A stretch of 64,000 nt of DNA from Escherichia coli (GCF_044324785.1 NZ_CP172127.1); one strand, 5' to 3'; numbered from the stretch's first letter, positions 1-39,715 are shown. Notes: generated by a model not told the origin, from the letters alone. Made by a program: numbers and translations.

Positions 1-900
1 GGGCTGATTGTGCCGCTGATTAGCGCGGCAATTGCCTATTCTATTGCCGATCGTCCCGGATTTGCCCCAGGCCTGATTGTCGGCTTTCTCTGCGGGCAAA
101 TCCATACCGGATTTATTGGCGGTATGTTGGGTGGTTTCCTGGTGGGCTACACCATTTTGCTACTTAAACGCTATATCCGCCTGCCGCAGTCGATGCAAGG
201 ACTCATGCCAATCATGGTGTTGCCGGTATTAAGCACCATTATCGGTGGGCTGTTAATGATGACGCTGATTGGTAAACCCATCGCCTGGTTACAAGAAGCA
301 CTGATTCATTTGCTCGAGTCGATGCAGGGCGGATCGCGCTTCCTGATGGGGGCCATACTTGGCGCGATGGCAACCTTCGATTTCGGTGGTCCGGTCAACA
401 AAACCATGTCGCTGTTTTCCGATGGCTTGCTGGTCAGTGGCGTCTACGGACCAGAAGCCGTGAAATTTGTCGGCTCAATCATCCCTCCGTTTGGCATCAC
501 ACTTTCGTTCTTACTGACACGCCATAAATACACCCGTGCGGAGCGCGAGGCGCTGAAAGCCGCGTTTCCGATGGGGATCTGCATGATCACTGAAGGAGTC
601 ATTCCTATCGCCGCGCGTGACCTGCTGCGAGTAGTGGGATCTTGTGTGGTGGCATCGGCGGTCGCGGGCGGCTTAATCATGGTGTGGGGCGTGGAGAGTC
701 CGGTTCCGCATGGCGGCATGTTTGTTGTGCCTCTGTTCACCCATCCTCTGCTGTTTTGCCTGGCGCTGGGTATAGGCACGGTGATTTGTGGCGTGATGCT
801 TTCACTCTGGAAGAAACCGGTAACGGAACGCGACGAAGAGTTTGACGAACTGAGCGATCAAAAGCTGAAAGATGAAGAGATCACTTTCACCCTCGAATAA
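1..900 (+). CDS. PTS fructose-family EIIC permease component, 5'-truncated at window edge (frz-like operon)
   Basis: Frame open from nt 1 and in frame with listed ORF 10..900; hydrophobic multi-TM translation with Gly-rich EIIC-like segment GFIGGMLGGFLVGY; followed by co-oriented aldolase and kinase genes. Confidence 0.65.
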   Translation, partial: GLIVPLISAAIAYSIADRPGFAPGLIVGFLCGQIHTGFIGGMLGGFLVGYTILLLKRYIRLPQSMQGLMPIMVLPVLSTIIGGLLMMTLIGKPIAWLQEALIHLLESMQGGSRFLMGAILGAMATFDFGGPVNKTMSLFSDGLLVSGVYGPEAVKFVGSIIPPFGITLSFLLTRHKYTRAEREALKAAFPMGICMITEGVIPIAARDLLRVVGSCVVASAVAGGLIMVWGVESPVPHGGMFVVPLFTHPLLFCLALGIGTVICGVMLSLWKKPVTERDEEFDELSDQKLKDEEITFTLE

Positions 901-911
901 CCGGAGGCCCT

Positions 912-1763
912 ATGTTTGCCGATATGAAAAGTATGGTGATGAAAGCCTGGCATGAACATTACGCCTTGCTGGCGATCAACTGTATGAATCTGGAAAGTGC
1001 TCACGCAGCTATCCGCGTGGCGGAGAAGAATCGCGCTCCGATCATTCTCAATCTCTATCAGGGGCATCTGGCGCATTTTCCTGCACCCGTCGCGGCGGCA
1101 GTGGTTAAAACGCTCGCGGAATCTGCCTCAGTACCGGTCACTCTGGCGCTTGATCATGGCAAAAATCCGGACTGTATTCGTCAGGCGTTTCGTGCTGGTT
1201 TCAGCGGATTAATGATTGATGCTTCTGCTTTTCCCCTGGAGGAAAACGTGCGCCAGACCAGGGCGGTGGTGGAACTCGCCGCCAGCGCGCAGCTCTGCGT
1301 GGAAGGCGAACTGGGCCATCTGGCAGATGCGCCGCGTTACGACCAGGCCGCCAATGCAGACCTGATGACGCAACCCACTGATGTGGAACCGTTTATCGCG
1401 CAGACAGGCATTGATCTACTGGCCGTCTCGGTAGGCACGGCGCACGGCATGTACGCGCCTGGTGTTGTACCTGCTATTGATTTTCAGCGTCTGGCGGAGA
1501 TTTTCCACTGCTCGAGCGTGCCTCTGGCATTACATGGCGGTAGCGGTACGCCGTTCGATCAGCTCCAGCTCTGTACGACGCTGGGGGTAGCAAAAATCAA
1601 CGTGGGGGCGGCCATTTTTGAACGGGGGAAATCCGCGCTCCTGCATACCCTCTGTCACGATATATCCATTGAACTGGTGGACGCGCTGAAAGCTATGGAA
1701 CTGGCCTTCGAAGAAGCGATTACACCGTATTTACAGGCGAGCGGCTCTATAGGCAAAGCCTGA
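912..1763 (+). CDS. class II ketose-bisphosphate aldolase family protein (fructose/tagatose-bisphosphate aldolase-like)
   Basis: 283-aa ORF; GGAGG 7 nt upstream of ATG; class II aldolase-like segments (LDHG, EGELG, HGGSG). Confidence 0.7.
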   Translation: MFADMKSMVMKAWHEHYALLAINCMNLESAHAAIRVAEKNRAPIILNLYQGHLAHFPAPVAAAVVKTLAESASVPVTLALDHGKNPDCIRQAFRAGFSGLMIDASAFPLEENVRQTRAVVELAASAQLCVEGELGHLADAPRYDQAANADLMTQPTDVEPFIAQTGIDLLAVSVGTAHGMYAPGVVPAIDFQRLAEIFHCSSVPLALHGGSGTPFDQLQLCTTLGVAKINVGAAIFERGKSALLHTLCHDISIELVDALKAMELAFEEAITPYLQASGSIGKA

Positions 1764-1843
1764 TTCATTTTCTGTCATGGCCTTTATGCCAGTGCAATAA
1801 CGCACCGGCAGGGCGGACTACACGCTGAAACTGGAGATTTAAC

Positions 1844-2704
1844 ATGTTAGTTTCGATGAAAGAATTACTGCAACCTACCCGCCAGCACGGCTTTGCCATT
1901 GGCGCATTTAATGTGGCGGATAACTGTTTCCTTCGCGCAGTCGTGGATGAAGCAGAAGCGACAAATACTCCGGCGATTATTGCCATCCATCCCAGCGAAC
2001 ATGATTTTGTGGGCGATGCCTTTTTCGCTCACGTTCGCGAAATTACCCAGCGTAGTCCGGTCCCGTTTGTACTGCACCTCGATCATGGTGCCTCTGTAGA
2101 GCATGTTTTGCGTGCGATTCGCTGCGGATTTACCTCAGTAATGATCGACGGTTCGCTGCTGCCGTATGAAGAAAACGTGGCGCTGACCGCAGAAGTGGTT
2201 CACCTCGCTCACGCGGTTGGAGTGTCGGTTGAGGGTGAACTGGGAACCATCGGACAAACAGGAACGTCGGTAGAAGGTGGTGTTTCACAAGTGACCTACA
2301 CAGATCCGGCGCAGGCCGCCGATTTTATTGCTCGTACAGGTGCCGACACACTGGCTGTGGCGATTGGTACAGCGCATGGCATCTATCCAAAAGGGATGCA
2401 GCCGAAGCTGCAAATGGACATTTTGCGCGACATTGCCGGACGTATTGATATTCCGCTGGTGCTACACGGTGGTTCGGCAAACCCGGACGCGGAGATTGCT
2501 GAATCAGTTACGCTCGGCGTCGGCAAAATCAATATCTCCAGTGATATGAAATACGCCTATTTCCAGAAAGTGCGTGAAATTCTCGCTAAAGAGAGCTGGT
2601 GGGACCCGAACGTCATCTATCCGGATGCGATTAACGCGGCGCGGGAAGTCATTCGCCACAAAATGAAACTGTTCGGTTCGCTCGGTAAAGCATCACTGTA
2701 CTAA
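1844..2704 (+). CDS. class II ketose-bisphosphate aldolase family protein (second paralog)
   Basis: 286-aa ORF with LHLDHG, VEGELG, LHGGS segments typical of class II FBP/tagatose-BP aldolases. Confidence 0.7.
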   Translation: MLVSMKELLQPTRQHGFAIGAFNVADNCFLRAVVDEAEATNTPAIIAIHPSEHDFVGDAFFAHVREITQRSPVPFVLHLDHGASVEHVLRAIRCGFTSVMIDGSLLPYEENVALTAEVVHLAHAVGVSVEGELGTIGQTGTSVEGGVSQVTYTDPAQAADFIARTGADTLAVAIGTAHGIYPKGMQPKLQMDILRDIAGRIDIPLVLHGGSANPDAEIAESVTLGVGKINISSDMKYAYFQKVREILAKESWWDPNVIYPDAINAAREVIRHKMKLFGSLGKASLY

Positions 2705-2751
2705 GCCAGAAGGGCGGGGTGACCCGCCTTTTACGCAACAAGGAACGAGAT

Positions 2752-3684
2752 ATGCACTATCTGGGGTTGGATATTGGTGGGACCAAAATCGCCGCCGTCG
2801 TCATGGATGCGCATGGCTGGGAGATTCGCCGTTACCGCTGCCCGACGCAAAAGTCGACATATCAACAATTTGTCTCATGCGTTGTGGCGCTTATCGAGCA
2901 GATTAGGCGGGACGTTCAACGACCGATGCTGACAGGGATCGCCTTACCCGGCAGTATCTCGCCACTCACTGGCCTGATTAAAAACGCGAATATTCAGGTG
3001 ATTAACGGTCATGCGTTACAGGCTGATTTGCAGCAATTGCTTGGGCAACCGGTGGTGATAGCCAATGATGGTAACTGTTTCGCGCTATCAGAAGCTTGCG
3101 ACGGTGCCGGGCAAGATTATGACGTAGTATTTGGTATTACGCTTGGTACAGGCTGCGGCGGTGGCATTGCCATCAAGCAACGACCGTTTATAGGGGCCTG
3201 GGGAAATGCTGCCGAATGCGGTCATATCACGTTGCCAGGCTATATGGAGCAGGAAGATGGTCCATCAGTCAGTTGCTATTGCGGCAAACACAACTGCGTG
3301 GAGTCGTTTGTTTCCGGCAGCGGTTTTAGTGAACGCTATCAACAGATGACTGGTAACTTGCTCACTCCTGCGGCGATTGTCACCCTGGCACAACGTGGTG
3401 ATGCTTGTGCCATGCAGCAGGTGGCACGTTTTCGCCAACAGCTTGCCCGCACGCTGGCAACCATCGTTAACGTTGTTGACCCTGGCGTGATTGTGATCGG
3501 CGGCGGGCTTTCGAATGTGGAACTGCTTATCACCGATCTGAACGCAGAAGTCGCTCCACTGGTTTTCACCGATCAATTCACCACTCCCATTGTAAAAGCA
3601 CAGCACGGCGACAGTAGCGGAATGCGTGGCGCTGCCTGGCTTGCTATGCGCAACGGAGAAGCCAATGAAACGCTCACAAATTAA
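2752..3684 (+). CDS. ROK-family sugar kinase
   Basis: N-terminal LGLDIGGTKIA ATP-binding motif and Cys/His-rich ROK signature region (CYCGKHNCVE); start set at ATG 2752, preceded by AAGGA. Confidence 0.7.
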   Translation: MHYLGLDIGGTKIAAVVMDAHGWEIRRYRCPTQKSTYQQFVSCVVALIEQIRRDVQRPMLTGIALPGSISPLTGLIKNANIQVINGHALQADLQQLLGQPVVIANDGNCFALSEACDGAGQDYDVVFGITLGTGCGGGIAIKQRPFIGAWGNAAECGHITLPGYMEQEDGPSVSCYCGKHNCVESFVSGSGFSERYQQMTGNLLTPAAIVTLAQRGDACAMQQVARFRQQLARTLATIVNVVDPGVIVIGGGLSNVELLITDLNAEVAPLVFTDQFTTPIVKAQHGDSSGMRGAAWLAMRNGEANETLTN

Positions 3685-4345
3685 TTATGTTATTGATAAA
3701 GCACATGCCATTGCGCAGACCTTCCGCGTTTGTTTGCCAGAGTTCGCCTATTTTACGGTGGATGACTGGCTGCAGCGGGAACGGGATAACTGGCAAGAAG
3801 TGGTCGACTTACAGCTCGGTTGGGATATCACCGATTTTGGTCGTGGTGATTTCAACCAAACGGGACTAACACTGCTAACGATGCGCAACGGCGCGCTGGG
3901 GTCGGCGGCATATCCAAAACCGTATGCTGAGAAAATGTTGCAGATCCAACAAGATCAGCAGACTCCCTGGCATTTTCACATCCACAAAATGGAAGATATC
4001 CTCAATCGGGGCGGTGGAGACTTATGCATGCAGTTGGCCTGGGCCAACGAAGCCAATCTCTGTGATGATCAACGAGTCATTACCGTGAGTGTTGATGGTC
4101 AGCGGCGTACCATGAAACCTGGTGAAACGCTGGTGCTAAAGCCGGGACAGGGCATTTGCCTGCCGCCGCGTCTGTATCATCGCTTCTGGGCGGAAAAAGC
4201 GTTTGTTCTCGGCTGGGAAATCTCGATGGTAAATGATGACCAACACGATAATTATTTTCTTGAGCCGGGAGGACGTTTTCCGGCGATAGAAGAAGATGAA
4301 CCGGTGAAATGGTTATTGTGCAGTGAGTATGGAATTTTGCGCTAA
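3665..4345 (+). CDS. cupin-superfamily sugar isomerase-like protein (D-lyxose/mannose isomerase-like)
   Basis: 226-aa frame starting MKRSQINYV; ATG overlaps ROK kinase stop (translational coupling); His-rich cupin-like core (WHFHIHK); last gene of operon. Confidence 0.5.
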   Translation: MKRSQINYVIDKAHAIAQTFRVCLPEFAYFTVDDWLQRERDNWQEVVDLQLGWDITDFGRGDFNQTGLTLLTMRNGALGSAAYPKPYAEKMLQIQQDQQTPWHFHIHKMEDILNRGGGDLCMQLAWANEANLCDDQRVITVSVDGQRRTMKPGETLVLKPGQGICLPPRLYHRFWAEKAFVLGWEISMVNDDQHDNYFLEPGGRFPAIEEDEPVKWLLCSEYGILR

Positions 4346-4354
4346 TAACGGGGA

Positions 4355-4388
4355 ACGCTAGCGCTGATATCCGCTAGCGTCCTTATTT
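4355..4388. terminator. rho-independent terminator-like hairpin between convergent cupin gene and yicH
   Basis: 9-bp stem ACGCTAGCG/CGCTAGCGT with 8-nt loop followed by T-rich tract. Confidence 0.45.
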
Positions 4389-6098
4389 TTACTGCACCGG
4401 CTCCGTCGACGTAACTTCACCACTGGAAACTACGCCCGCATTCATGGTTTGAGTCACTTGCTGCTTTGCGGCGTTCACGGCATGGAGTTGCCCGCTAACC
4501 GTAGGTTTCAGCGGGATATTGGCCTGAATATCGCCGCTGGCGGTAAGCTGAATATTGCCGTCGCCAGTCAACGGTAATTCAGGCCATCCCCACTGTTGCA
4601 AAATATTCACCGGCACACCGCGTCCATTCAGGCTGATATGGGTCTGACGTTGTGGCGTTTGTGAAACACTGGCGGTGGCTTCCAGAATGCCTTTTTCAGT
4701 AAATGCACTCAGTTCGCTGATATTCACCGTGCTGCTGTTGGCGGTTAGCGCCAGCGATGGGCGACGAATATCAACACGATTAAACGTCGCGGCGGCGGCA
4801 TTCAGATTCGCCGAGCCACTCCAGACGCCCCATTTATGATCGGTAACCAGCGTCAGATTGGCACCGTAACCATCGAGCGCGGTGAGCTGCCACGGGAAGT
4901 CAGGGTCGATATCAATGATCAGATTGCGGCTGGCGCTAAATCTCTTCAGTTGCAGGCTGTTTAACCAACCGGGTGTCGTTTCCATCCACAACTGTTGCCA
5001 GTTTTTTGGCAAGGTATATTCCAGTCCGGCAATTGCCGCATCATCAAGGATCAACGTTTTCCCGTTGCGCAGCCAGTTCCCGGACGTTCTGACCATGCCC
5101 CCTTCCCAGCGGCTGGTGAACTGGCGCAGCGCTACGCCCTGCGGGGAAAATTCCGCGTTTATAATCGGGTCAAATAAATGCAGCGAACCATAAATGAACT
5201 CGCTGGCGTTCATCGACAGTTTGCCTTCCTGTGTCTGCCAGTCATCTTTACTGAAGGTCATGTTGCGCAAGCTGAGATCGAGGTCGGTCACCGCCCAGTC
5301 CGGACCTTGCAAACGAGCATCGATGACTTCCAGGCGACCAATCTGCAACGACGGGACAGAGCGTAATGGCGCAAAGAAGTCGGTTAGCGATTTTTCGCTT
5401 TGTAGACGGATATCCGCCAGCCGCAGATTTTCCACTTGCCAGCTGCCGTCAGCGTTACGCTGCGCGTTTCCGGTTAATGTCCCGCGGGCGATGTCGGCAC
5501 CCAGGTTAGTCAGCGTAACGCGATCGTTATCAATACTGCCTTCAATCAGTACATTGGTGGCAGGAACATCATTGAGCGAAAGCGATCCGGCACTAAACTG
5601 AATCTGCGCCTTCGTACCCAGCACTTTACCGGCTTCAGGTGACCACGGAACCACGCCGCCATTTACTCGCTGCGCGCTTAGTTTCCATTCGCTATTCGGG
5701 CTATTAAACGCCATATCACGCAGTTGCAGACGATCGGCTTTGAACGGTAGCGGCGCGGTCTGGTCGGTGAGATTCAGCGTCCCGTTTTCCAGCAGGATGG
5801 TATCGACATGGCGTGGTTCGGTCAGTTGCCGACTGCTTAGCGCAATGTCGACACTTTTTGCCACCAGGGTCGCGGGCTGGCCATCACGACCAAACGTGAC
5901 GTTCTCCAGCACGATATGAGATGGCGCGGAAAAACGGTGATCCATCGCCCCGAAAGCCAGATGATAGTCGCTATTCTCGGAAACCCATGCGCTGATATGT
6001 TCTGCTCCCCAGCGGGTTTGCAGAAGAAAATAGAGGCCAGCGATCACCACTAACAGAGCGATGAGAATGTAGAGAAGCAGCTTCCCAATAAATTTCAT
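4389..6098 (-). CDS. yicH: AsmA-family outer-membrane biogenesis protein YicH
   Basis: 569-aa translation from MKFIGKLLLYILIALLVV with N-terminal signal anchor; position next to xanP as in E. coli. Confidence 0.85.
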   Translation of the reverse strand: MKFIGKLLLYILIALLVVIAGLYFLLQTRWGAEHISAWVSENSDYHLAFGAMDHRFSAPSHIVLENVTFGRDGQPATLVAKSVDIALSSRQLTEPRHVDTILLENGTLNLTDQTAPLPFKADRLQLRDMAFNSPNSEWKLSAQRVNGGVVPWSPEAGKVLGTKAQIQFSAGSLSLNDVPATNVLIEGSIDNDRVTLTNLGADIARGTLTGNAQRNADGSWQVENLRLADIRLQSEKSLTDFFAPLRSVPSLQIGRLEVIDARLQGPDWAVTDLDLSLRNMTFSKDDWQTQEGKLSMNASEFIYGSLHLFDPIINAEFSPQGVALRQFTSRWEGGMVRTSGNWLRNGKTLILDDAAIAGLEYTLPKNWQQLWMETTPGWLNSLQLKRFSASRNLIIDIDPDFPWQLTALDGYGANLTLVTDHKWGVWSGSANLNAAAATFNRVDIRRPSLALTANSSTVNISELSAFTEKGILEATASVSQTPQRQTHISLNGRGVPVNILQQWGWPELPLTGDGNIQLTASGDIQANIPLKPTVSGQLHAVNAAKQQVTQTMNAGVVSSGEVTSTEPVQ

Positions 6099-6218
6099 GG
6101 TCTTCCATCCCGTGAAATGCACATAAGGGAGTTATGCACGATTTACGCGCAATCCTCAAGGCGGGAATGGTGAAAGAGGTGAGACTGCGGCGGTAATTAT
6201 CTTACCGCCGCCAGTGAA

Positions 6219-7610
6219 TTACTGTTTTTCTGGTGGGAAAATCAGATTCAGCACGATGGCAGTAATACCGCCCGCGGCGATCCCGGAGGAGAGCAGGTTT
6301 TTCAGCCATTCAGGGGCAAACTGCAAAATCAGCGGCTGCTGAGAAACGCCCAGACCGACCGCTAGCGACAGCGCGATAATCAGAATCGCCCGACGGTTCA
6401 GCGGCTCACGAGAAACGATACGCACACCGGAGGCGGCGATGGTGCCAAACATTACAAGCGTTGCGCCGCCCAGAACCGGTTCTGGAATGTGTTGTACAAA
6501 ACCGCTCACTGCCGGGAACAGACCCAGCACGATCAACATCAGCGCGACGACAAAACCGACATAGCGGCTGGCAACACCGGTCAACTGGATCACACCGTTG
6601 TTCTGCCCGAAGCAGGAGTTCGGGAAAGTGTTAAACACCGCCGAAACAAACGAGTTCAGGCCGTTTGCCAGCACGCCGCCTTTCAGGCGTTTCATGTACA
6701 GCGGACCGGACACTGGCTGTTCGGAAACGTCAGAGGTCGCCGTGATATCGCCAATGGTTTCCAGCGAAGTGATCATAAAGACCAGCATCAGCGGCAGCAG
6801 CAGACTCCATTCAATGCCAAGACCGTAATAGAGCGGCGTTGGCACCATAATCAGTTCTTGCGTCATCGGTTCGTTGCTTTCTGGCAACATGCCCATAAAC
6901 CACGCCAGCGCATATCCGGCCGCCATCGCAATCACCAGTGAGGCCACGCGCAAATATGGGTTACGCTGACGGTTAAGCAGGATAATTAAGGCTAAGACCA
7001 CGCCCGCCAGCAGCAGATTTTTCGGTGCGCCGAAGGTGTTATCGCTCATGGCTGCGTAACCGCCGCCAATGGACGTTAACCCAACCTGAATTAGCGACAG
7101 GCCGATAATCATCACCACAACGCCAGAAACTAGCGGCGTAATAATGCGGCGCGCCAGATGCAGAACGCGGGAGATCACCATCTCAGTGCAACTTGCCAGC
7201 ATCAACGTGCCGAACAAAGCCGCCATCATGGTAGGAACATCAGCACCACCGGTCTTCAGCGCTGTGCCGCCCATAATCAGCGGGGCAACAAAGTTGAAGC
7301 TGGTGCCCTGAATAGACAACAGCCCGGAGCCAACCGGACCCCAGGCCTTAATTTGAATAATCGATGCCACACCGGAGGCAAACAGCGACATACTAATAAT
7401 GTGTTGCGTGTCTTGTGCCGGTAAACCCAGCGCCTGGCAGATTAATAGCGCTGGCGTGATCACCGCAACGAACATCGCCAGCAAATGCTGACAGGCGGCA
7501 AACAGGGTTTGAGGAAGCGGCGGACGATCTTCAAGACGGTAAATCAGTTCGCTGTTTTGAGTCTGCGCAACCGGTTGCGCATTTTCTGACTCGAGGGTGG
7601 AAACAGACAT
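6219..7610 (-). CDS. xanP: xanthine permease XanP (NCS2 family)
   Basis: 463-aa multi-TM translation [34 protein letters not shown] recognised as XanP. Confidence 0.9.
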
Positions 7611-7889
7611 CGAAAACAATCCCGTGGTAGCAAAGCGGGCATTTTAGCTGACCGAAAGAGAAAAGCAAACGTTTGCCACATCCTCATCTAAATATTTAAA
7701 TGAGATAAATGTACTTTTTTATATAACTTTTAGTTGTTTTCTGCTTAAAATCCATGCCATTTTTCTATTTTCAGCTAAGAATTCGAACCAGGAAAGCATG
7801 ACTCGATACTCGTCATATTTCGCCTTACTGCAAATGCGCGATGAAGTATGACGAGTATGAAAGAGTGATGCGGACACAAAGGAGTAACT

Positions 7890-9095
7890 ATGTTTCATCT
7901 CGATACTTTAGCAACGCTTGTTGCCGCAACGCTGACGTTGCTGCTCGGGCGCAAGTTGGTCCATTCCGTCTCCTTTTTGAAGAAATACACCATACCGGAA
8001 CCTGTTGCGGGTGGTTTATTAGTGGCGCTGGCGCTACTGGTACTGAAAAAAAGCATGGGCTGGGAAGTCAACTTTGATATGTCCCTGCGCGATCCGTTAA
8101 TGCTGGCTTTCTTCGCCACCATTGGTTTGAACGCCAACCTTGCCAGTCTGCGTGCCGGTGGGCGTGTGGTTGGCATCTTCTTGATTGTGGTTGTTGGTCT
8201 GTTGGTGATGCAAAATGCCATTGGCATTGGTATGGCTAGCCTGTTAGGGCTTGATCCGCTGATGGGGCTGTTGGCCGGTTCTATTACGCTTTCCGGCGGT
8301 CACGGTACGGGCGCTGCGTGGAGTAAATTGTTCATTGAACGCTATGGCTTCACCAATGCGACGGAAGTGGCGATGGCCTGTGCGACGTTTGGTCTGGTGC
8401 TGGGCGGCTTGATTGGCGGTCCGGTAGCGCGCTATCTGGTGAAACACTCCACCACGCCGAACGGTATTCCGGATGACCAGGAAGTCCCGACGGCGTTCGA
8501 AAAGCCGGATGTGGGCCGCATGATCACCTCGCTGGTGCTGATTGAAACTATCGCGCTGATTGCTATCTGCCTGACGGTGGGGAAAATTGTTGCGCAACTT
8601 TTGGCTGGCACTGCTTTTGAACTGCCGACCTTCGTCTGTGTACTGTTTGTTGGCGTGATTCTGAGCAACGGTCTGTCAATGATGGGCTTTTACCGCGTCT
8701 TTGAGCGTGCGGTATCCGTGCTGGGTAACGTAAGCCTGTCGTTGTTCCTGGCGATGGCGCTGATGGGGCTGAAACTATGGGAGCTGGCTTCGCTGGCGCT
8801 GCCGATGCTGGCGATTCTGGTGGTACAGACCATCTTCATGGCGTTGTATGCCATCTTCGTTACCTGGCGCATGATGGGCAAAAACTACGATGCGGCGGTG
8901 CTGGCTGCGGGTCATTGTGGTTTTGGCCTCGGTGCAACGCCAACGGCAATCGCCAACATGCAGGCGATCACTGAACGTTTTGGCCCGTCGCACATGGCCT
9001 TCCTGGTAGTGCCGATGGTCGGTGCGTTCTTTATTGATATCGTTAACGCGCTGGTGATTAAGCTGTATTTAATGTTGCCGATTTTTGCGGGCTAA
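7890..9095 (+). CDS. gltS: sodium/glutamate symporter GltS
   Basis: 401-aa translation MFHLDTLATLVAATLTLLLGRKLV recognised as GltS; divergent from xanP. Confidence 0.9.
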   Translation: MFHLDTLATLVAATLTLLLGRKLVHSVSFLKKYTIPEPVAGGLLVALALLVLKKSMGWEVNFDMSLRDPLMLAFFATIGLNANLASLRAGGRVVGIFLIVVVGLLVMQNAIGIGMASLLGLDPLMGLLAGSITLSGGHGTGAAWSKLFIERYGFTNATEVAMACATFGLVLGGLIGGPVARYLVKHSTTPNGIPDDQEVPTAFEKPDVGRMITSLVLIETIALIAICLTVGKIVAQLLAGTAFELPTFVCVLFVGVILSNGLSMMGFYRVFERAVSVLGNVSLSLFLAMALMGLKLWELASLALPMLAILVVQTIFMALYAIFVTWRMMGKNYDAAVLAAGHCGFGLGATPTAIANMQAITERFGPSHMAFLVVPMVGAFFIDIVNALVIKLYLMLPIFAG

Positions 9096-9097
9096 AA

Positions 9098-9964
9098 ATG
9101 AAAAAGCGTCGGAAGGAACCGGAAACGCTACGTGAACACTGTCGCCATATTTTTGGTGATGAGCCGCCAGTGCTCTGTGTATGGGAAACGGAATTTGATT
9201 ACGCAGATGCCGAACTCAAGGCGCTGGCGGCTAAAGAGTGGCAGCAGATCAGCGAATGGGATTTGAGTGCTTACTATGTACTCAATCTCGTTTATAACGA
9301 ACCGATGCAACCAGAGTTGTTTCGCTATCTGTTTCCGCTCTGCCTGGCGCAATGGCATGAAACCGTTTTAGCTGGCGGTTATGGTGATCACTTCGAAGAA
9401 TCATTAATGAAGGCATTGCGTCGGCCCTATCTCTGGCAGGAGATGATGAATGCTTCCCAACGCCAGCAGGTACGGCAATTTTTACTGGAAACCGCGTTGC
9501 AGCGTATGGATAACGAGCGCGGTTTCAATAATGTTCTTTGCTGGCTGGCGGTGTTCAATACTCTGGGCGGGGCCGCGCCATTAATTCGTCCCCTTTGGTC
9601 ACGCTGGTGGGCACTGGATACGCCCGGCAAAGCGGTGTGTGCTATTCAATATGCTGCGCATCTTATTTATCCCATAGAAGCCAATCCGTTATGGTCGCAA
9701 GAATGGTTAGGCTGGGGGCATCCATTAGGCCATAAAGATGGCTGGTCCTCTGAGAATCGCGCTTTTCTTCGCCAGATGTTAACACCTGAAATGATTGTGG
9801 CTGGCGTACAGGCAGCGGCTGAAATTCTGCGTGGTGAACCGGAAGGCACAATGGCGGCGCGAATTGCGCAGGATGCGTATGAGGCAATGGATATCATCAC
9901 TATCCAGATTGAAGATTTACTGCGTGACTTGTCTTGCGATGAGTCAGGTCATGCGTTGGAGTAA
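9098..9964 (+). CDS. hypothetical protein (Trp-rich, soluble), not part of the K-12 gltS-recG junction as I recall it
   Basis: 288-aa ORF starting 3 nt after gltS stop; 3' end overlaps recG 3' end by 16 nt; no recognisable motif. Confidence 0.45.
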   Translation: MKKRRKEPETLREHCRHIFGDEPPVLCVWETEFDYADAELKALAAKEWQQISEWDLSAYYVLNLVYNEPMQPELFRYLFPLCLAQWHETVLAGGYGDHFEESLMKALRRPYLWQEMMNASQRQQVRQFLLETALQRMDNERGFNNVLCWLAVFNTLGGAAPLIRPLWSRWWALDTPGKAVCAIQYAAHLIYPIEANPLWSQEWLGWGHPLGHKDGWSSENRAFLRQMLTPEMIVAGVQAAAEILRGEPEGTMAARIAQDAYEAMDIITIQIEDLLRDLSCDESGHALE

Positions 9965-29893: not shown

Positions 29894-32653
29894 TCATTCT
29901 TCAGATGAGTTATAATCTCCTGGCTGGTAATTGAGTACATAAACGTTTATTTGTCGTCCCTGAATACGTGGTGATTTTCTTTGGTATCCACGACCGCTGT
30001 TTGGTGGGGTTAGCATCCCGGCTTTTTTCAACACTTCAGCAAACTGTTTTGCGTTGAAACCACATGCGATCTCCTTTTCAAATGTGGCCGGGAATGTGTA
30101 GAAAATCATTGGGCTTTCGTCATGTTCTCCACGCTGACGGTATCCGGCTAAATCTTTGATGGGCAAATCTGCCGGGCTGTATGGAAATGGTGCAAAACGG
30201 CTAAGCCCATAGGCATTAAGAAATGCCTCCGTTTGTTCAATAATCTGCTGATGCTCTTTGTTACCTGTGCCGAACTCGCGCAACCATGCGTTATAGCTGT
30301 GCTGTATCGCATCACGGCATGTCTGAGCATCCCAGCCTGTTACAACCTCGCCTAACAACAATGCGGCCTCCAGAATGGCAAATCGCGCGGCTACACGGTG
30401 AACCTGCTCACCATAATCGGATGGGATCAGGCTTCTCCATCTGCTTTCGCAATCACGAACGGTTTTAATAGCCTGTTGCTGGTGGTGTGCCAGCCATTTA
30501 ATCCACTCACGCCCGGACGCGCCGTGGTGATGCTGGTAAGCGTCTTTCAGTGCGTCTGCGTGCTGTTTTCCGTTCTGGTAATCGTGAAAGCGTACTGCTT
30601 TACTCAACGGAATATTCAGCAGTCGCACCAGTTGCCCGGCTTTGGTTTTTCGCCCGGAAGTAGCGATAAATGTTTCTAAATCCATTTCTCCGGTGCTGAT
30701 TGCCACTGTACGCCAGCGTTTTAGATCCCGGTTTCCACCATCTTTAGCGCCTTGCAGTTTCCCTACACCGTTAAATAACGCATAGGCAGACTGTGAAACG
30801 CTGACAGGATCAGCGCCCTGACCAACTTCATCAAGCGGCATTAGTCCGTCATTGTGGGCGGCGGCCTCATTTGCCAGCCCCAGCGCGGTTCCGTACCACG
30901 TCAGCCGCAGTAAATCAGGGTTGCCGTATAAGCTGCTCGCCACGTTTGCCGTGGTGGTCTTACCTGCGCTCGACTGCTCATAGAAATGAATGCCGAACCC
31001 GTCAGCGCCCACCAGCCCAATCAATGGCGCTGCCAGTGCTGCGCCGATCCCGGTCATCATTGAATAGTTACCAAAGGCCAGACGCGCCACGTTATCACGC
31101 CAGCTTTTCGCGCTCCCTGAGACGGTATATCCGGCTGCGGCTGAGCTTCTCCCGCTGAACAGCACAGGATTTTCAGGTGTTCCGATGATTTCCCCATCAG
31201 GCATGATGTACGCTCCGCATTGCCAGCCAGTGGCATGAGCAACACGCCACAATTCACGAGAGCCACTGCGTTGTAGCCAGTCTGCCAGTATTGCTCTGAG
31301 GCTGCTTTTGGTCGTGACATTTACCCCACCAGCTTTAAGTGTGCGCCATCCTTCACGTTCACCAATATCAGCCAGTGGAATGGCAGCGGTTGTCGGCGTT
31401 TCAGAACCAAACGACAGCCAGCGAAGAATGAGATACTGGTCTTTATCGTCTCTGCCAGTACCGATAACGCTTAACGGAGAACATAACCAGCTTTCGTTAT
31501 TGATGATTTCTCCACTCTGGCTGTCAGCTCTCGGAGATACCCAATAAATACCATCCTCGCGGCTTTCTATTCTTGGTTTCAGTGGGTCGGTATCCATAAC
31601 CTTAAAATCGCTTCCCTCAATGGTCTGTGGCTCCTGTTTCACGCCATTACCCTGTGGTTGGTACATTGACTTATTGAACGCTTCTGTGGCGCATTTAATG
31701 CCGTGTTTTTGGTGGTAATCATTCCAGTCTGCTTTGTGATCTGTCGGGGGTAATGCCACCCATCCAGAAACAGATAAAGCTGCTTTTTCTGCTGCTATTC
31801 TCCCCGTGTTTTGTCTTCCTTCGCTGTGGTCGTTATCCGCAGCAATGATGATTTGTGCTGAAGGAAATTTATCCCGCAGTACCTGGGCGACATATAACAG
31901 GTTCCCGGCATCAATCGCAGCCACTGTCAGCGCCTCTGGACGAATTAAATGGGCAGATAATGCCGTTGCCAGACCTTCTGCGATTAAGATGCTCTGTGTT
32001 GTTTCTGGTGCGTTTATGGCGTGATATGCCCCCCGCTTTGCTGAACCTGTCAGGAGTCTTTTTTCACCATGTGAGGTAATAGTCTGTGCTGCTGTTACTG
32101 CGCCGGATTTATCCACCAGCGCCAGCAACAGAGATCCATCGGGCAACACGGGGAATGTAAAATCACCTACCCCTTTCGCAACCAGATAATCAGATTTGCC
32201 GTTTACAGCCTTTCTGCGCATGTCATCAAACTGACGGGAAAACGTATCCCGTCTTTGTTGTTCGTCCTTCTCTGCCCTTTTCAGGCGCTCCTGTTCGCGT
32301 CGCTGGCGCTCGGTTTCCAGTTGTTCCCGTTTCTGGCTGGTGGCTTCTGGTGTTTCCGTTGTCCGGTAATCAATACCCAGAACATCAGCGGCAAGAAGCG
32401 CCGCCTCTGTTGTGTCGCAGTTATTTACGCGTTTAATTAAATCCAGCCCATCACCAGCGCCGCACTGATTACAGATGAAGCTACCGCGCCCGTTGTCATC
32501 GAACCGGAATCGATCTTTGCCCCCACATGCAGGGCAGGGAGCATGACGGCGCGGAGAGTCAGGGACATTTATGTTCAGGCAGCCCAGCACATGAGGCCAG
32601 TTGTTTTCAGACGCACTGATAACCTGACGGATAAGATCAATGTTTCGCATCAC
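29894..32653 (-). CDS. P4 alpha-like primase/helicase replication protein (zinc-ribbon, Toprim and P-loop NTPase domains)
   Basis: 919-aa ORF; N-terminal CPACGG...CNQCG zinc ribbon; Toprim-like AADNDHSEGRQNTG; Walker A SSAGKTTT in C-terminal half. Confidence 0.8.
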   Translation of the reverse strand: MMRNIDLIRQVISASENNWPHVLGCLNINVPDSPRRHAPCPACGGKDRFRFDDNGRGSFICNQCGAGDGLDLIKRVNNCDTTEAALLAADVLGIDYRTTETPEATSQKREQLETERQRREQERLKRAEKDEQQRRDTFSRQFDDMRRKAVNGKSDYLVAKGVGDFTFPVLPDGSLLLALVDKSGAVTAAQTITSHGEKRLLTGSAKRGAYHAINAPETTQSILIAEGLATALSAHLIRPEALTVAAIDAGNLLYVAQVLRDKFPSAQIIIAADNDHSEGRQNTGRIAAEKAALSVSGWVALPPTDHKADWNDYHQKHGIKCATEAFNKSMYQPQGNGVKQEPQTIEGSDFKVMDTDPLKPRIESREDGIYWVSPRADSQSGEIINNESWLCSPLSVIGTGRDDKDQYLILRWLSFGSETPTTAAIPLADIGEREGWRTLKAGGVNVTTKSSLRAILADWLQRSGSRELWRVAHATGWQCGAYIMPDGEIIGTPENPVLFSGRSSAAAGYTVSGSAKSWRDNVARLAFGNYSMMTGIGAALAAPLIGLVGADGFGIHFYEQSSAGKTTTANVASSLYGNPDLLRLTWYGTALGLANEAAAHNDGLMPLDEVGQGADPVSVSQSAYALFNGVGKLQGAKDGGNRDLKRWRTVAISTGEMDLETFIATSGRKTKAGQLVRLLNIPLSKAVRFHDYQNGKQHADALKDAYQHHHGASGREWIKWLAHHQQQAIKTVRDCESRWRSLIPSDYGEQVHRVAARFAILEAALLLGEVVTGWDAQTCRDAIQHSYNAWLREFGTGNKEHQQIIEQTEAFLNAYGLSRFAPFPYSPADLPIKDLAGYRQRGEHDESPMIFYTFPATFEKEIACGFNAKQFAEVLKKAGMLTPPNSGRGYQRKSPRIQGRQINVYVLNYQPGDYNSSEE

Positions 32654-35042: not shown

Positions 35043-35848
35043 GTAACGCTACCACCGGAAACGCCAATTTCGCTGGTGGTAGCCCAGACAGGGTTGGCGT
35101 AACCGGCTCGAATGGATACCGGCGCTTCCGAAGAAGCCCCTGCCTGAGCCACCATTGATTGACAAAGGCGCTGGATTATACACCAACGCCCAAAAAATGG
35201 GTGAGTCAGACCTACGACATAAAAAAAGACGCTCGGCGCGTCATATGTCGCCATTCGATTTACCAGGACGCCAATCCCGGCACCCGTTTTATGAGGTGCC
35301 TTATAACCATAAACCGTGTTGCCGCATAACGGCAAGCTCTTTTTTATGGACTCCGAAAACTCGCTATTGGAAGCACCAGATGCACAGTACATCGCGCTCA
35401 TTTCGTTAACGTCACGCACGTGGACGAATGTTTTTGTGGAGTCACTACACGAGCGGAAGACATCATCTACGACCAGAAATTTTCTGGCGCAGCCGCTGAC
35501 CTTCTCAACGCTAACACCATCGACCGTAATTTCTGACATAGTTAAGGCATCCGCTCCCACCACCAGAAAATGATAAACTTTGCTTGTATCTGCTGTATTA
35601 ATGCCAGACTTTGCTGTCATATTGCTGGATTTTGGCGACATACCTGCCAGTGAAAATGTCTTCTTCTGGACGGTTAGCATTTGTTAACCTCCGCGAACTC
35701 CTTCATGAAACGTGCCAGCGGTTGTACGCATGGCGATTGATACCCGTCGCGATAAAACGTCACTCGGTTGTGAGACACGCTTTCGACAGTAACGAGTGCT
35801 CCGTGGGCATCTTTGTAGCGTTTTTGAGGTTGTGGTGTTCCTGTCGGC

Positions 35849-38404: not shown

Positions 38405-39658
38405 TCATGCTCTGATTGGCGTTACGTTGTAGTCTTTTCCGCTTTCCAGTGCCACCAGCAGATCTGCCCACTGTGCTAGTGCTGCTTTACGCTCATCAAA
38501 ATACTGATGACGGTTATAAATCCCCTCTACGCCCTTAATGCGATGATTGAGGCATCGTTCCGCCACGACAGGATCAACACCCAATGCTGCTAAATGAGTA
38601 CGTGCGGTGCGTCGGAAGTCGTGAATCGTGAAATTAGGCACATCCGGAATTTCGGCGCGAACCTTAGCCAGTGCTACGGGTAAAGTGCTTTCCTGAATAT
38701 GTGGGATCATTCTGTTTTGCATCTTCCTGGCCGGAAGCACCCATGCGCTATTACATGAAAAGGTGTGTAGCTCTCTCAACCATTCAACGGCTGGGGAAGG
38801 TAGAGGTATATCAATAGGGTCTCCGTTTTTGCTGCGTTCTTCCGGCAAATGCCATACCGCACCATCTAAATCAAACTCTTCCCATCGTGCGGCGCATAAC
38901 TCCATCTTACGAACGCATAGTGCCAGCAATAGTTTAAATGTCAGTTCGTTTTGGCGGCTGAATCCTTTTGCGGTGCGCATAGCCTCGAATAGTCTGATAA
39001 GCTCATCGCGAGTTAGCCAACGGTCGCGGGAAACCTCTTTACCACCAGCATCAGATACTTCAAACGCTGAACAAGGGTTTATCTCCAGAGCGTGGCGTTT
39101 TATCCCATAGTCAAAGATACGGCGTGTCCAGCGCAATACATCTGTTGCTATCGTTGGTGCTCCTCGGTCAACGATACCTTTCAACATGTCGTCAATGTGG
39201 CGTGGCTTAACGTCCTCTACCTTCATATGCCCAATGCAGGGGTTAATATCCTTATCAATTCTCCGGCGAAGGATATCGGGATGTTTCCATCTCGGAAGTA
39301 TCTGGCGCTCGAAGTATTCGGAGGCCAGATCTGAAACACGCATGGCGTTTTTCTCAGCCTCCATTTTTGCCAGTGCTTCAGCTTTTCGTTCCTGTTTCTC
39401 TGCTGCTACGTCATAGCCAAGAGCAACTCTGGCTGACAGCTCTTTTGCTGTTTCTCTGGCTTTTGATAGTGACAGTTCGGAGTAAGAGCCTATAACCATA
39501 GCCCGCTGCTTTCCTGCGAGCTTATAGCGGAATCGCCAGAACGGGACTGTGTAGTTTTTGGGGTAGCAAATATAAAGGCCGTTGCCGTCTGCCTTGCCAT
39601 CAAATCTGTCTCCCGCCTTTATCCATGCGCGGATCTGCATATCTGTGAGTTTTGGCAT
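38405..39658 (-). CDS. int: P4-type tyrosine integrase
   Basis: 417-aa translation from MPKLTDMQIRAWIKAGDRFDGKADGNGLY; C-terminal catalytic region with HDFRRTARTHL and Tyr near the C-terminus; listed ORF start over-extended. Confidence 0.85.
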   Translation of the reverse strand: MPKLTDMQIRAWIKAGDRFDGKADGNGLYICYPKNYTVPFWRFRYKLAGKQRAMVIGSYSELSLSKARETAKELSARVALGYDVAAEKQERKAEALAKMEAEKNAMRVSDLASEYFERQILPRWKHPDILRRRIDKDINPCIGHMKVEDVKPRHIDDMLKGIVDRGAPTIATDVLRWTRRIFDYGIKRHALEINPCSAFEVSDAGGKEVSRDRWLTRDELIRLFEAMRTAKGFSRQNELTFKLLLALCVRKMELCAARWEEFDLDGAVWHLPEERSKNGDPIDIPLPSPAVEWLRELHTFSCNSAWVLPARKMQNRMIPHIQESTLPVALAKVRAEIPDVPNFTIHDFRRTARTHLAALGVDPVVAERCLNHRIKGVEGIYNRHQYFDERKAALAQWADLLVALESGKDYNVTPIRA

Positions 39659-39715
39659 TGCGAATACCTGAATATCGAATATGGGTGTGTACATAAAGCA
39701 ATGTACATGAAAGTC

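What the first reader, a model, noticed from the sequence alone, without database searches (positions are those of the whole stretch)
1..4345. 3' end of an frz-like accessory sugar-metabolism operon next to yicH
A PTS fructose-family EIIC, two class II ketose-bisphosphate aldolases, a ROK kinase and a cupin isomerase are co-oriented and partly translationally coupled. This gene content matches the frz operon described in extraintestinal pathogenic E. coli and is absent from K-12, which hints at the strain background. The substrate remains undefined.
Basis: partly seen in the sequence, partly recalled or inferred. Interest (0 to 1): 0.35.

Follow-up and report, generated by a model that had tools for sequence, protein, structure and literature searches.

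The report
Known frz sugar operon, distal half
Window 1-4345 holds the last five genes of the frz sugar-uptake and breakdown operon of E. coli, first described in 2009 and sitting at its usual place beside yicH, so it is a known feature whose sugar substrate is still unidentified.

Summary
Window 1-4345 (+) carries, in order:
- the 3' 900 nt of a fructose-family PTS EIIC gene, cut by the window edge
- two class II aldolase genes
- a ROK kinase gene
- a D-lyxose-isomerase-family cupin gene
- a hairpin terminator 4 nt from the convergent yicH stop codon

The segment is 99.5-99.6% identical to the eight-gene unit between yicI and yicH in UTI89 and D8: PRD regulator, EIIA, EIIB, EIIC, aldolase, aldolase, ROK, isomerase. 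That unit is the published frz operon. K-12 has only 52 bp at this site. The segment occurs in 1605 of 5426 complete E. coli genomes.

What I can add:
- The same operon lies at the same yicI/yicH site in Citrobacter and Klebsiella, and next to yicH/xanP in Phytobacter and one Kosakonia. It looks like an old enterobacterial operon, not an ExPEC invention.
- The ROK gene is absent in six Citrobacter loci.
- A paralogous isomerase-aldolase pair sits in an ABC-transporter/PfkB-kinase cluster.
- The frz allele here is closer to common E. coli alleles (99.6%) than the flanking backbone is to any complete E. coli genome (98.3-99.1%), and the closest backbone (strain N3) has an empty site. This suggests import by recombination, so frz says little about strain background.

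The substrate remains unknown. Verdict: already known, low interest.

The parts
1..900 (+). 3' 900 nt (codons 65-363 plus stop) of the frz PTS EIIC gene, fructose family; the 5' 192 nt lie outside the window
   Evidence: TIGR01427 at 256 bits against cut-off 157.55. 99.9% nt identity to the D8 EIIC gene, which is 1092 nt in full. No aa differences from D8 or UTI89.
912..1763 (+). Class II (metal-dependent) aldolase 1, 283 aa; the more divergent of the two
   Evidence: PF01116 at 252 bits. Below every NCBIfam equivalog cut-off. 33% identical to aldolase 2 and keeps the LDHG, EGELG, GTAHG and LHGGS motifs. GGAGG lies 5 nt upstream and the spacer after the EIIC stop is 11 nt.
1844..2704 (+). Class II ketose-(bis)phosphate aldolase 2, 286 aa
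   Evidence: PF01116 at 304 bits. NF006042 (PRK08185 subfamily, no assigned function) at 525 bits against cut-off 405. 89-100% aa identity across genera.
2752..3684 (+). ROK-family sugar kinase, 310 aa, without an N-terminal DNA-binding domain
   Evidence: PF00480 at 249 bits. Nearest NCBIfam model is fructokinase NF007108 at 318 bits, below its cut-off of 443. The CYCGKHNCVE cysteine motif is in the translation. It is the least conserved gene (67-79% aa outside Escherichia) and is absent from six Citrobacter loci.
3665..4345 (+). D-lyxose/D-mannose-isomerase-family cupin, 226 aa; overlaps the ROK gene by 20 nt
   Evidence: PF07385 at 291 bits. NF051472 at 272 bits, below its cut-off of 350. 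50% identical to Z5688 (PDB 3KMH/3MPB), with H103, H105, E110 and H172 invariant.
4355..4390 (.). Hairpin (9-bp stem, 6 G-C pairs) plus T-run between the convergent cupin gene and yicH; likely the 3' end of the operon. frz-specific DNA ends at about 4384
   Evidence: Top terminator-like site in 1-6300. Homology to the empty-site genomes N3 and K-12 starts at window 4385, 4 nt before the yicH stop codon.
4389..6098 (-). yicH (AsmA-family protein): conserved flank and right-hand boundary marker, not part of the operon
   Evidence: PF05170 AsmA. Annotated yicH in D8, K-12, N3 and UTI89. Mismatch density against D8 rises about six-fold from here on.

Best explanation
**What it is.** This is the promoter-distal five-eighths of the frz operon. 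frz is a self-contained unit of about 7.2 kb inserted between the convergent genes yicI and yicH. Its full gene order is PRD/Mga-type activator, EIIA, EIIB, EIIC, aldolase 1, aldolase 2, ROK kinase, Lyx-isomerase-family cupin. The first three genes lie just outside the window.

**Shown.** Identity, position, intactness, distribution and conservation of the operon as a unit.

**Inferred mechanism.** The operon is an inducible PTS-dependent catabolic route for a hexose (or close derivative) that has not been identified.
- The regulator's PRD domains are presumably phosphorylated by HPr and the Frz EIIB, coupling transcription to substrate availability.
- EIIABC imports the sugar and phosphorylates it.
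- The cupin interconverts an aldose and a ketose form.
- The two Zn-type aldolases cleave the resulting ketose phosphate to DHAP plus a C3 aldehyde or aldehyde phosphate.
- The ROK kinase captures unphosphorylated sugar and is dispensable in some genera.

**Two sub-routes fit the gene set. My rough weights are given in brackets.**
- (a) Aldose is converted to aldose-6-P by the PTS. The cupin isomerises this to ketose-6-P, a housekeeping Pfk makes the 1,6-bisphosphate, and the aldolases cleave it (about 0.4).
- (b) Ketose is converted to ketose-1-P by the PTS, as FruA does with fructose, and the aldolases cleave it directly. This would explain why frz encodes no second kinase of the PfkB/FruK type. 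The isomerase and ROK kinase would then form a side branch for free sugar (about 0.35).

The published phenotypes come from the literature, not from this work: fitness in late stationary phase under oxygen restriction, a bias of the type 1 fimbrial switch towards ON, and adhesion and invasion.
For: - **Identity.** 99.5-99.6% nt identity over the whole 4345 nt to UTI89, D8 and ST131 strains, with identical annotation. PMC12928451 equates the yicH..yicI region with frz.
- **Domains.**. The regulator has HTH_11, Mga and PRD domains plus a PTS_IIB-like domain.
- **Single unit.** Short spacers or overlap between genes, no excess of promoter-like sites, and one strong terminator at the end. Reviews state that it is transcribed as one operon.
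- **Purifying selection and unit conservation.** The same eight genes in the same order occur in Citrobacter, Klebsiella, Phytobacter, Kosakonia and Izhakiella. EIIC is 90-97% identical at the aa level against about 82% at the nt level.
- **Enzymes look competent.** Both aldolases keep the metal and catalytic motifs. The cupin keeps the four metal ligands of Z5688. The ROK protein has the Cys motif and no HTH.
- **Functional link between isomerase and aldolase.** The paralogous Z5688-type isomerase is also immediately followed by a class II aldolase in most enterobacterial loci. In the one locus annotated (L020) the pair lies between ABC-transporter genes and a PfkB kinase gene.
- **This aldolase family includes monophosphate users.** YdjI (PDB 6OFU) is among the closest solved relatives. 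Its ketose-1-phosphate specificity is from my own knowledge of the literature.
Against: - No substrate is known, and reviews still list the function as unclear.
- Characterised Lyx-isomerase-family enzymes act on free sugars, not sugar phosphates. That fits poorly with PTS uptake in sub-route (a).
- Six Citrobacter loci lack the ROK kinase, so the kinase cannot be a core step.
- Neither aldolase reaches an NCBIfam equivalog cut-off for FBP or TBP aldolase, so specificity cannot be read from sequence.
- The regulator and the EIIA and EIIB genes are not in the window; their presence in this genome is inferred from near-identical genomes.
- The primary 2009 paper could not be read here.
Confidence: 0.9

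Rival explanations
1. Frz acts mainly as a sensory or regulatory PTS. Its phosphorylation state reports nutrient status and feeds into the fim switch and stress fitness, and carbon flux through the enzymes is minor.
For: The reported phenotypes are regulatory: the fimS ON/OFF bias and late-stationary-phase survival. No growth substrate is reported in the reviews read.
Against: Four cytoplasmic enzymes with intact catalytic motifs are co-transcribed and conserved with the transporter across at least six genera. That is hard to explain for a pure sensor. The regulatory phenotypes could be secondary to metabolism.
Confidence: 0.2
2. The operon is a D-lyxose/D-mannose utilisation system equivalent to the one containing Z5688 in E. 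coli O157:H7.
For: The cupin is 50% identical to Z5688 D-lyxose isomerase and the metal ligands are conserved. The ROK kinase is nearest to the manno/fructokinase model NF007108.
Against: The cupin scores 272 bits against the equivalog cut-off of 350. frz-type (75-96%) and Z5688-type (45-50%) proteins form two separate identity classes, and several Citrobacter genomes and Kosakonia sacchari SP1 carry both. The Z5688-type cluster uses an ABC transporter and a PfkB kinase instead of a PTS and a ROK kinase. A pentose is an unlikely substrate for a fructose-family PTS (own knowledge).
Confidence: 0.12
3. The region is an ExPEC-specific, horizontally acquired virulence or fitness islet, and so marks this genome as a B2-type ExPEC.
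For: The literature reports association with ExPEC and with virulence classes. Hits include ST131, UTI89 and avian isolates.
Against: The segment is present in 1605 of 5426 complete genomes from many sources. The same operon sits at the same yicI/yicH site in Citrobacter and Klebsiella, with divergence similar to that of the flanks: 73-82% nt for frz against 77-84% for the flanks versus Citrobacter. There is no integrase, IS element or direct repeat at the junction. The backbone of this window is at best 98.3-99.1% identical to any complete E. coli genome and differs 2.3% from the UTI89-like strain D8.
Confidence: 0.1
4. The genes are a decaying remnant with no current function.
For: The substrate is unknown. 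The ROK gene has been lost in some genera.
Against: All five ORFs are full length, with 0-3 aa changes per gene against D8 and UTI89. aa conservation exceeds nt conservation across genera. Deletion phenotypes have been published.
Confidence: 0.02

Closest known systems
frz operon of avian ExPEC strain BEN2908 (Rouquet et al. 2009, as cited in PMC12928451, PMC8777976 and PMC6727828)
   Same: Same chromosomal site (yicI/yicH), same size (about 7.28 kb), same gene content and order. The window is 99.5% identical to UTI89, one of the strains PMC12928451 compared and lists as carrying the region complete.
   Different: Only the last five genes are in the window. The allele sits on a backbone that is not close to B2 ExPEC. 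BEN2908 itself was not compared directly.
Z5688 (D-lyxose isomerase, PDB 3KMH/3MPB) cluster of E. coli O157:H7 and related Enterobacteriaceae
   Same: A Lyx_isomer cupin sits next to a class II aldolase and a sugar kinase, downstream of a transporter. The metal ligands are conserved.
   Different: Only 45-50% aa identity for the isomerase and 41-48% for the aldolase. It has an ABC transporter and a PfkB kinase instead of PTS EIIABC and a ROK kinase, one aldolase instead of two, and a different chromosomal site. Some genomes carry both clusters.
gat/aga (GatY, KbaY/AgaY) tagatose-1,6-bisphosphate pathways of E. coli
   Same: PTS uptake followed by a class II aldolase of the same Pfam family. 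AgaY (1GVF) and KbaY (8Q57) are among the nearest solved structures.
   Different: The frz aldolases score far below the GatY and KbaY models. There is no GatZ/KbaZ partner and no tagatose-6-P kinase. The PTS is of the fructose family, not the galactitol or mannose family. The pathway details for gat/aga are from my own knowledge.
D-tagatose cluster of E. coli Nissle 1917 / B2 phylogroup (PMC9720028)
   Same: An accessory, B2-enriched rare-sugar cluster ending in a ketose-bisphosphate aldolase.
   Different: It has an ABC transporter, a tagatose kinase and an aldose 1-epimerase. It has no PTS, no cupin isomerase and no ROK kinase, and it is a different locus.
PRD-activator-controlled fructose-family PTS operons (B. 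subtilis manR-manP-manA; E. coli K-12 cryptic frv/frw/fry systems)
   Same: A fructose-family EII is combined with an HTH-Mga-PRD-EIIB-like activator and a sugar-phosphate isomerase logic. This comparison rests on my own knowledge.
   Different: No sequence-level orthology was tested here. Those systems have no aldolase pair.

Membership tests
frz operon (E. coli, yicI-yicH locus) | Located between yicI and yicH | tested here: met
   yicH lies convergently 44 nt after the cupin stop codon. The yicI side is off-window, but it is present in every near-identical genome examined: D8, UTI89 and Escherichia sp. L003.
frz operon (E. coli, yicI-yicH locus) | Gene set: Mga/PRD activator, fructose-family EIIA, EIIB and EIIC, two class II aldolases, ROK kinase, cupin | tested here: met
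   The five distal genes were confirmed in the window. The three proximal genes lie outside the window and were seen only in D8, UTI89 and the other loci.
frz operon (E. coli, yicI-yicH locus) | Near-identity to the sequence in strains reported to carry frz | tested here: met
   22 mismatches in 4345 nt against UTI89. PMC12928451 lists the frz region (GR27) as complete in the ExPEC/AIEC strains it compared, which include UTI89.
frz operon (E. coli, yicI-yicH locus) | Absent from K-12 | tested here: met
   MG1655 has a 52-bp yicH-yicI spacer and no similarity to window 1-4345 in that 18-kb locus. Genome-wide absence is taken from PMC12928451.
frz operon (E. coli, yicI-yicH locus) | Fitness, type 1 fimbriae and invasion phenotypes | not testable with these tools
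   Literature only.
PTS fructose-family EIIC (TIGR01427) | Score at or above the curated cut-off | tested here: met
   256 bits against 157.55, even though the protein is truncated.
Class II FBP/TBP aldolase equivalogs (FbaA-like, GatY, KbaY) | Score at or above an equivalog cut-off | tested here: not met
   Both proteins fall below all FBP and TBP aldolase equivalog cut-offs. Aldolase 2 passes only the uncharacterised subfamily NF006042 and the broad TIGR00167 ketose-bisphosphate aldolase subfamily. Both belong to Pfam PF01116.
Class II aldolase (PF01116) | Metal-ligand and catalytic motifs (D-H in LDHG, E in EGELG, H in GTAHG, H in LHGGS) | tested here: met
   All four motifs are present in both proteins. 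The mapping of these motifs to the AgaY zinc ligands is from memory.
ROK sugar kinase | ROK domain with the cysteine-rich Zn motif and without an N-terminal HTH | tested here: met
   PF00480 covers residues 3-299 of 310 and no DNA-binding domain is found. CYCGKHNCVE is present. The protein is below the fructokinase (Mak) equivalog cut-off, 318 against 443, so the substrate is not assigned.
D-lyxose/D-mannose isomerase equivalog (NF051472, Z5688-like) | Score at or above the equivalog cut-off | tested here: not met
   272 bits against a cut-off of 350 and 50% identity to Z5688. It is a family member (PF07385, 291 bits) but a distinct paralogue, and both types coexist in some genomes.
D-lyxose/D-mannose isomerase equivalog (NF051472, Z5688-like) | Conserved metal-binding His/His/Glu/His | tested here: met
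   H103, H105, E110 and H172 are invariant in the pairwise alignment. Their role as ligands is from memory of the 3KMH paper.

The most novel reading that the evidence does not exclude
frz is not an ExPEC acquisition. It is an ancestral enterobacterial operon at the yicI/yicH site that persists in Escherichia as a presence/absence polymorphism. In this genome it was recently re-imported by homologous recombination from mainstream E. coli onto a divergent Escherichia backbone whose nearest sequenced relative (strain N3) has the empty site. Mechanistically, its aldolases may cleave a ketose 1-phosphate made directly by the PTS, which would explain why the operon has no second kinase.
Probability: 0.3. 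Interest if true: 0.35.

Novelty: already known. Interest (0 to 1): 0.15.

Why it matters
The operon is a published fitness determinant of extraintestinal pathogenic E. coli whose substrate has not been identified since 2009. Finding that sugar would link a host or dietary nutrient to fimbrial switching and invasion. This window adds no new component.

The comparative results do sharpen the question:
- The conserved core is regulator, EIIABC, two aldolases and the isomerase; the ROK kinase is optional.
- The isomerase-aldolase pairing recurs in a paralogous ABC-type cluster.
- The operon is old and shared with Citrobacter, Klebsiella and Kosakonia.

Substrate hunts can therefore use those genera, and frz presence should not be read as a pathotype marker.

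Tried and rejected
- **Primary paper.** The 2009 frz paper could not be retrieved by DOI or by a guessed PMC id. Its content is cited only through later papers.
- **Substrate in the literature.** Searches for a later substrate assignment found none. The only Z5688 mention retrieved was a transcriptome table entry.
- **Same as the Nissle D-tagatose cluster?** Rejected: different transporter and enzymes.
- **Mobile-element insertion?** Rejected at the visible junction. There are no repeats, IS elements or integrase, and the frz-specific DNA ends cleanly 4 nt from the yicH stop codon.
- **Is the extra DNA between frz and yicH in Klebsiella part of frz?** Rejected. It is an opposite-strand RpiR / GH4 / PTS-EIICB unit.
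- **Closest solved structures.** They gave family-level matches only, and no frz protein has a solved structure.
- **Side island.** A PADLOC scan of the 19-40 kb island found nothing meaningful. Pfam shows it is phage-derived.
- **Not done.** I did not run structure prediction or the large protein-database searches, because they could not identify the substrate.
Full report
**1. What is in the sequence**

Six-frame ORF listing and family scans show five co-oriented + strand genes in window 1-4345.
- **EIIC (1-900).** A PTS EIIC of the fructose family: TIGR01427, 256 bits against a cut-off of 157.55. It is cut by the window edge. The ORF tool's GTG start at position 10 is an artefact. The complete gene is 1092 nt in strains D8 and UTI89, so the window holds its last 299 codons.
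- **Aldolase 1 (912-1763).** PF01116, 252 bits.
- **Aldolase 2 (1844-2704).** PF01116, 304 bits. It also passes the uncharacterised NCBIfam subfamily NF006042, 525 bits against 405.
- **ROK kinase (2752-3684).** PF00480, 249 bits, with no DNA-binding domain. Its nearest model is the Mak-type fructokinase, but it scores below that cut-off.
- **Cupin (3665-4345).** PF07385 Lyx_isomer, 291 bits.

Gene spacing is as follows:

| Junction | Spacing |
|---|---|
| EIIC to aldolase 1 | 11-nt spacer with GGAGG |
| Aldolase 1 to aldolase 2 | 80 nt |
| Aldolase 2 to ROK | 47 nt |
| ROK to cupin | 20-nt overlap |

'Partly translationally coupled' is therefore fair only for the last junction and perhaps the first.

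The best terminator-like hairpin in 1-6300 lies at 4355-4380, followed by a T-run. That T-run extends into the stop codon of the convergent yicH gene (4389-6098, - strand). Promoter-like sites are not enriched: 2 were found against 4.8 expected.

**2. Identity with the published frz operon**

Megablast against 5426 complete E. coli genomes finds the whole 4345-nt segment in 1605 genomes, 1455 of them at 99% identity or better, and the best at 99.6%.

In strain D8 and in the uropathogenic reference strain UTI89 the segment is the distal part of an eight-gene unit between yicI and yicH:
- a 'BglG-family' regulator, which Pfam resolves as HTH_11 + Mga + two PRD stretches + a PTS_IIB-like domain
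- EIIA, EIIB and EIIC
- two aldolases
- a ROK kinase
- the isomerase

The BEN2908 genome paper (PMC12928451) describes the yicH..yicI region of 7283 bp as the frz operon. It lists it as complete in the ExPEC/AIEC strains it compared, which include UTI89, and does not find it in K-12. The D8 yicI-yicH gap is 7281 bp.

The window differs from UTI89 at 22 of 4345 positions. Each gene has 0-3 amino-acid changes and no gene is disrupted. K-12 MG1655 has yicH and yicI only 52 bp apart.

Later papers summarise the known biology. The genes are transcribed as one operon. The operon promotes survival in late stationary phase under oxygen restriction, favours the ON orientation of the type 1 fimbrial switch, and aids adhesion and invasion. 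It is associated with ExPEC. A 2021 review still lists its function as not clearly known. I could not read the primary 2009 paper.

**3. The insertion site**

Empty sites (K-12 and N3) carry a G+C-rich hairpin between the two convergent genes. In occupied genomes a diverged copy of that hairpin remains next to yicI, followed by about 290 bp of regulatory DNA and the regulator gene.

At the other end frz brings its own hairpin (window 4355-4380). Homology with empty-site genomes resumes at window 4385, 4 nt before the yicH stop codon. There is no direct repeat, IS element or integrase at the junction visible in the window.

**4.

I scanned one genome per species (100,044 species) with an alignment of the frz cupin and Z5688. 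It returned 80 loci, which fall into two identity classes. A tblastn of all frz and flanking proteins against these loci gave the following.

*frz-type loci (75-96% aa identity, 15 loci).* All 15 carry the same operon in the same order.

| Genomes | Context |
|---|---|
| Escherichia sp. MOD1-EC7003, eight Citrobacter, two Klebsiella (michiganensis, grimontii) | Between yicI and yicH |
| Phytobacter, Kosakonia sp. S29 | yicH/xanP downstream; no yicI hit upstream |
| Kosakonia sacchari, K. arachidis | Different neighbourhood; in K. sacchari: srl PTS, mltB, znu, recA |
| Izhakiella | Flanking genes not identified |

- Six Citrobacter loci lack the ROK gene cleanly: aldolase 2 ends about 50 bp before the cupin gene. 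Izhakiella has no full-length ROK gene.
- Divergence from Citrobacter is similar for frz (73-82% nt) and for the flanks (77-84% nt).
- Amino-acid identity is much higher than nucleotide identity. For EIIC it is 96% aa against 82% nt, which indicates purifying selection.

*Z5688-type loci (40-51% aa identity).* The closest are enterobacterial (45-50%). Most of those have a class II aldolase (41-48% identical to aldolase 2) immediately downstream of the isomerase. In the one locus I annotated, the cluster is ABC ATPase, permease, periplasmic binding protein, isomerase, aldolase, PfkB kinase.

The isomerase-aldolase pairing is a recurrent module.

**5. The allele here against its backbone**

Mismatches against D8 number 17 in 1-4345 and 110 in 4346-9095. 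The jump falls at about 4320-4470, which is the frz/yicH boundary (Fisher p = 2e-16).

| Window segment | Best identity to any complete E. coli genome |
|---|---|
| frz, 1-4345 | 99.6%; 1455 genomes at 99% or better |
| yicH-gltS | 98.3%; none at 99% or better |
| recG-spoT | 98.4% (strain N3 only; next best 97.4%) |
| slmA-waaA | 99.1% |

Strain N3 is the closest backbone over yicH-ligB, and it has an empty yicI-yicH site.

frz is not intrinsically slower-evolving than its flanks. In Escherichia sp. MOD1-EC7003 frz is 92-95% identical to the window and the yicH, xanP and gltS flanks are 95-96%.

The simplest reading is that this frz allele was exchanged recently with mainstream E. coli by homologous recombination. 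The host lineage is poorly represented among complete genomes. This is an inference, because the left junction is off-window and no trees were built. It does mean that frz is a weak guide to strain background.

**6. How it probably works**

*Shown.* The gene set, its intactness, its conservation as a unit, and conserved catalytic motifs:
- LDHG, EGELG, GTAHG and LHGGS in both aldolases
- H103, H105, E110 and H172 in the cupin, aligned with Z5688, PDB 3KMH
- the Cys motif in the ROK protein

*Inferred.* A PRD-activator-controlled PTS imports and phosphorylates an unidentified hexose. An aldose-ketose isomerisation follows, and class II aldolases cleave the product to triose units.

The operon encodes no FruK/PfkB-type kinase. 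That leaves two routes:
- (a) The PTS makes aldose-6-P, the cupin isomerises it to ketose-6-P, and a housekeeping phosphofructokinase makes the bisphosphate substrate.
- (b) The PTS makes ketose-1-P, as FruA does with fructose, and the aldolases cleave it directly.

Route (b) is plausible because YdjI, a close solved relative of both aldolases, uses a ketose 1-phosphate (the specificity is from my own knowledge). It is also plausible because the paralogous cluster has only one kinase ahead of its aldolase.

The ROK kinase is accessory. It is the least conserved gene and is lost in Citrobacter.

A mainly sensory role remains possible (about 0.2), given the regulatory phenotypes. It is hard to square with four conserved enzymes.

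**7. Verdict**

This is the known frz operon, or rather its distal five genes, at its known locus. Novelty: already known. Interest is low (0.15).

The modest additions are:
- conservation of the operon across genera at the same site
- the optional ROK gene
- the recurrent isomerase-aldolase module
- evidence that this allele is a recombinational import on a divergent backbone

Noticed in passing
window 4389-18724 and 43560-50100: The chromosomal backbone is unusually distant from all 5426 complete E. coli genomes. Best identities are 98.3%, 98.4% (strain N3 only; next best 97.4%) and 99.1%. recG is only 94-96% identical to D8 and K-12. The source is probably a rarely sequenced Escherichia lineage.
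   Followed up: partly
window 9096-9958 (ORF 9098-9964, +): A 288-aa ORF with no Pfam hit lies between gltS and recG and overlaps the recG 3' end by 16 nt. It is absent from D8, K-12 and UTI89. Strain N3 has it, annotated as a hypothetical protein.
   Followed up: partly
window 19175-39846: About 20.7 kb of extra DNA relative to UTI89, inserted at the 3' end of yicC and flanked by an imperfect repeat of about 20 bp (TTATTCGAT..GGATCTG). It carries a tyrosine integrase (38405-39742), a P4-type primase (29894-32653), Ash and AntA proteins, C4 antisense RNA and isrK (35072-35299), P22-like ejection proteins (26578-28676; the adjacent 701-aa ORF at 24473-26578 has no Pfam hit), an IS transposase (21642-22547) and a Peptidase_M78 protein. 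It looks like a phage-derived integrative element. The adjacent dinD is truncated.
   Followed up: partly
window 42262-43559 (ORF 42546-43517, +): A 1.3-kb insertion between pyrE and slmA encodes a 323-aa reverse transcriptase (RVT_1). From memory, position and size match retron Ec107, described as inserted between pyrE and ttk (slmA). I did not look for msr/msd.
   Followed up: no
window 50436-50474 and 53494-58817: A JUMPstart element lies upstream of the waa (LPS core) genes. The central waa region has no megablast match to UTI89, which suggests a different core oligosaccharide type.
   Followed up: no
L005, L006, L008, L009, L010, L016 (Citrobacter), about 9950-10000; L014 (Izhakiella): The frz operon in these genomes lacks the ROK kinase gene. 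Aldolase 2 is followed within about 50 bp by the cupin gene. Citrobacter sp. FP75 (L007) keeps the ROK gene.
   Followed up: partly
L015 and L017 (Klebsiella michiganensis / grimontii), about 10700-14800: A separate RpiR-regulator / GH4 6-phospho-glycosidase / PTS EIICB unit sits between frz and yicH, with the GH4 and EIICB genes on the opposite strand.
   Followed up: partly
hit H30, NZ_JBUBJV010000003.1 62762-64459: The only match classed as 'plasmid' covers just query positions 1-1698, on a 122-kb record of a chicken isolate. It is possibly a chromosomal contig mislabelled as a plasmid, or a rearrangement.
   Followed up: no
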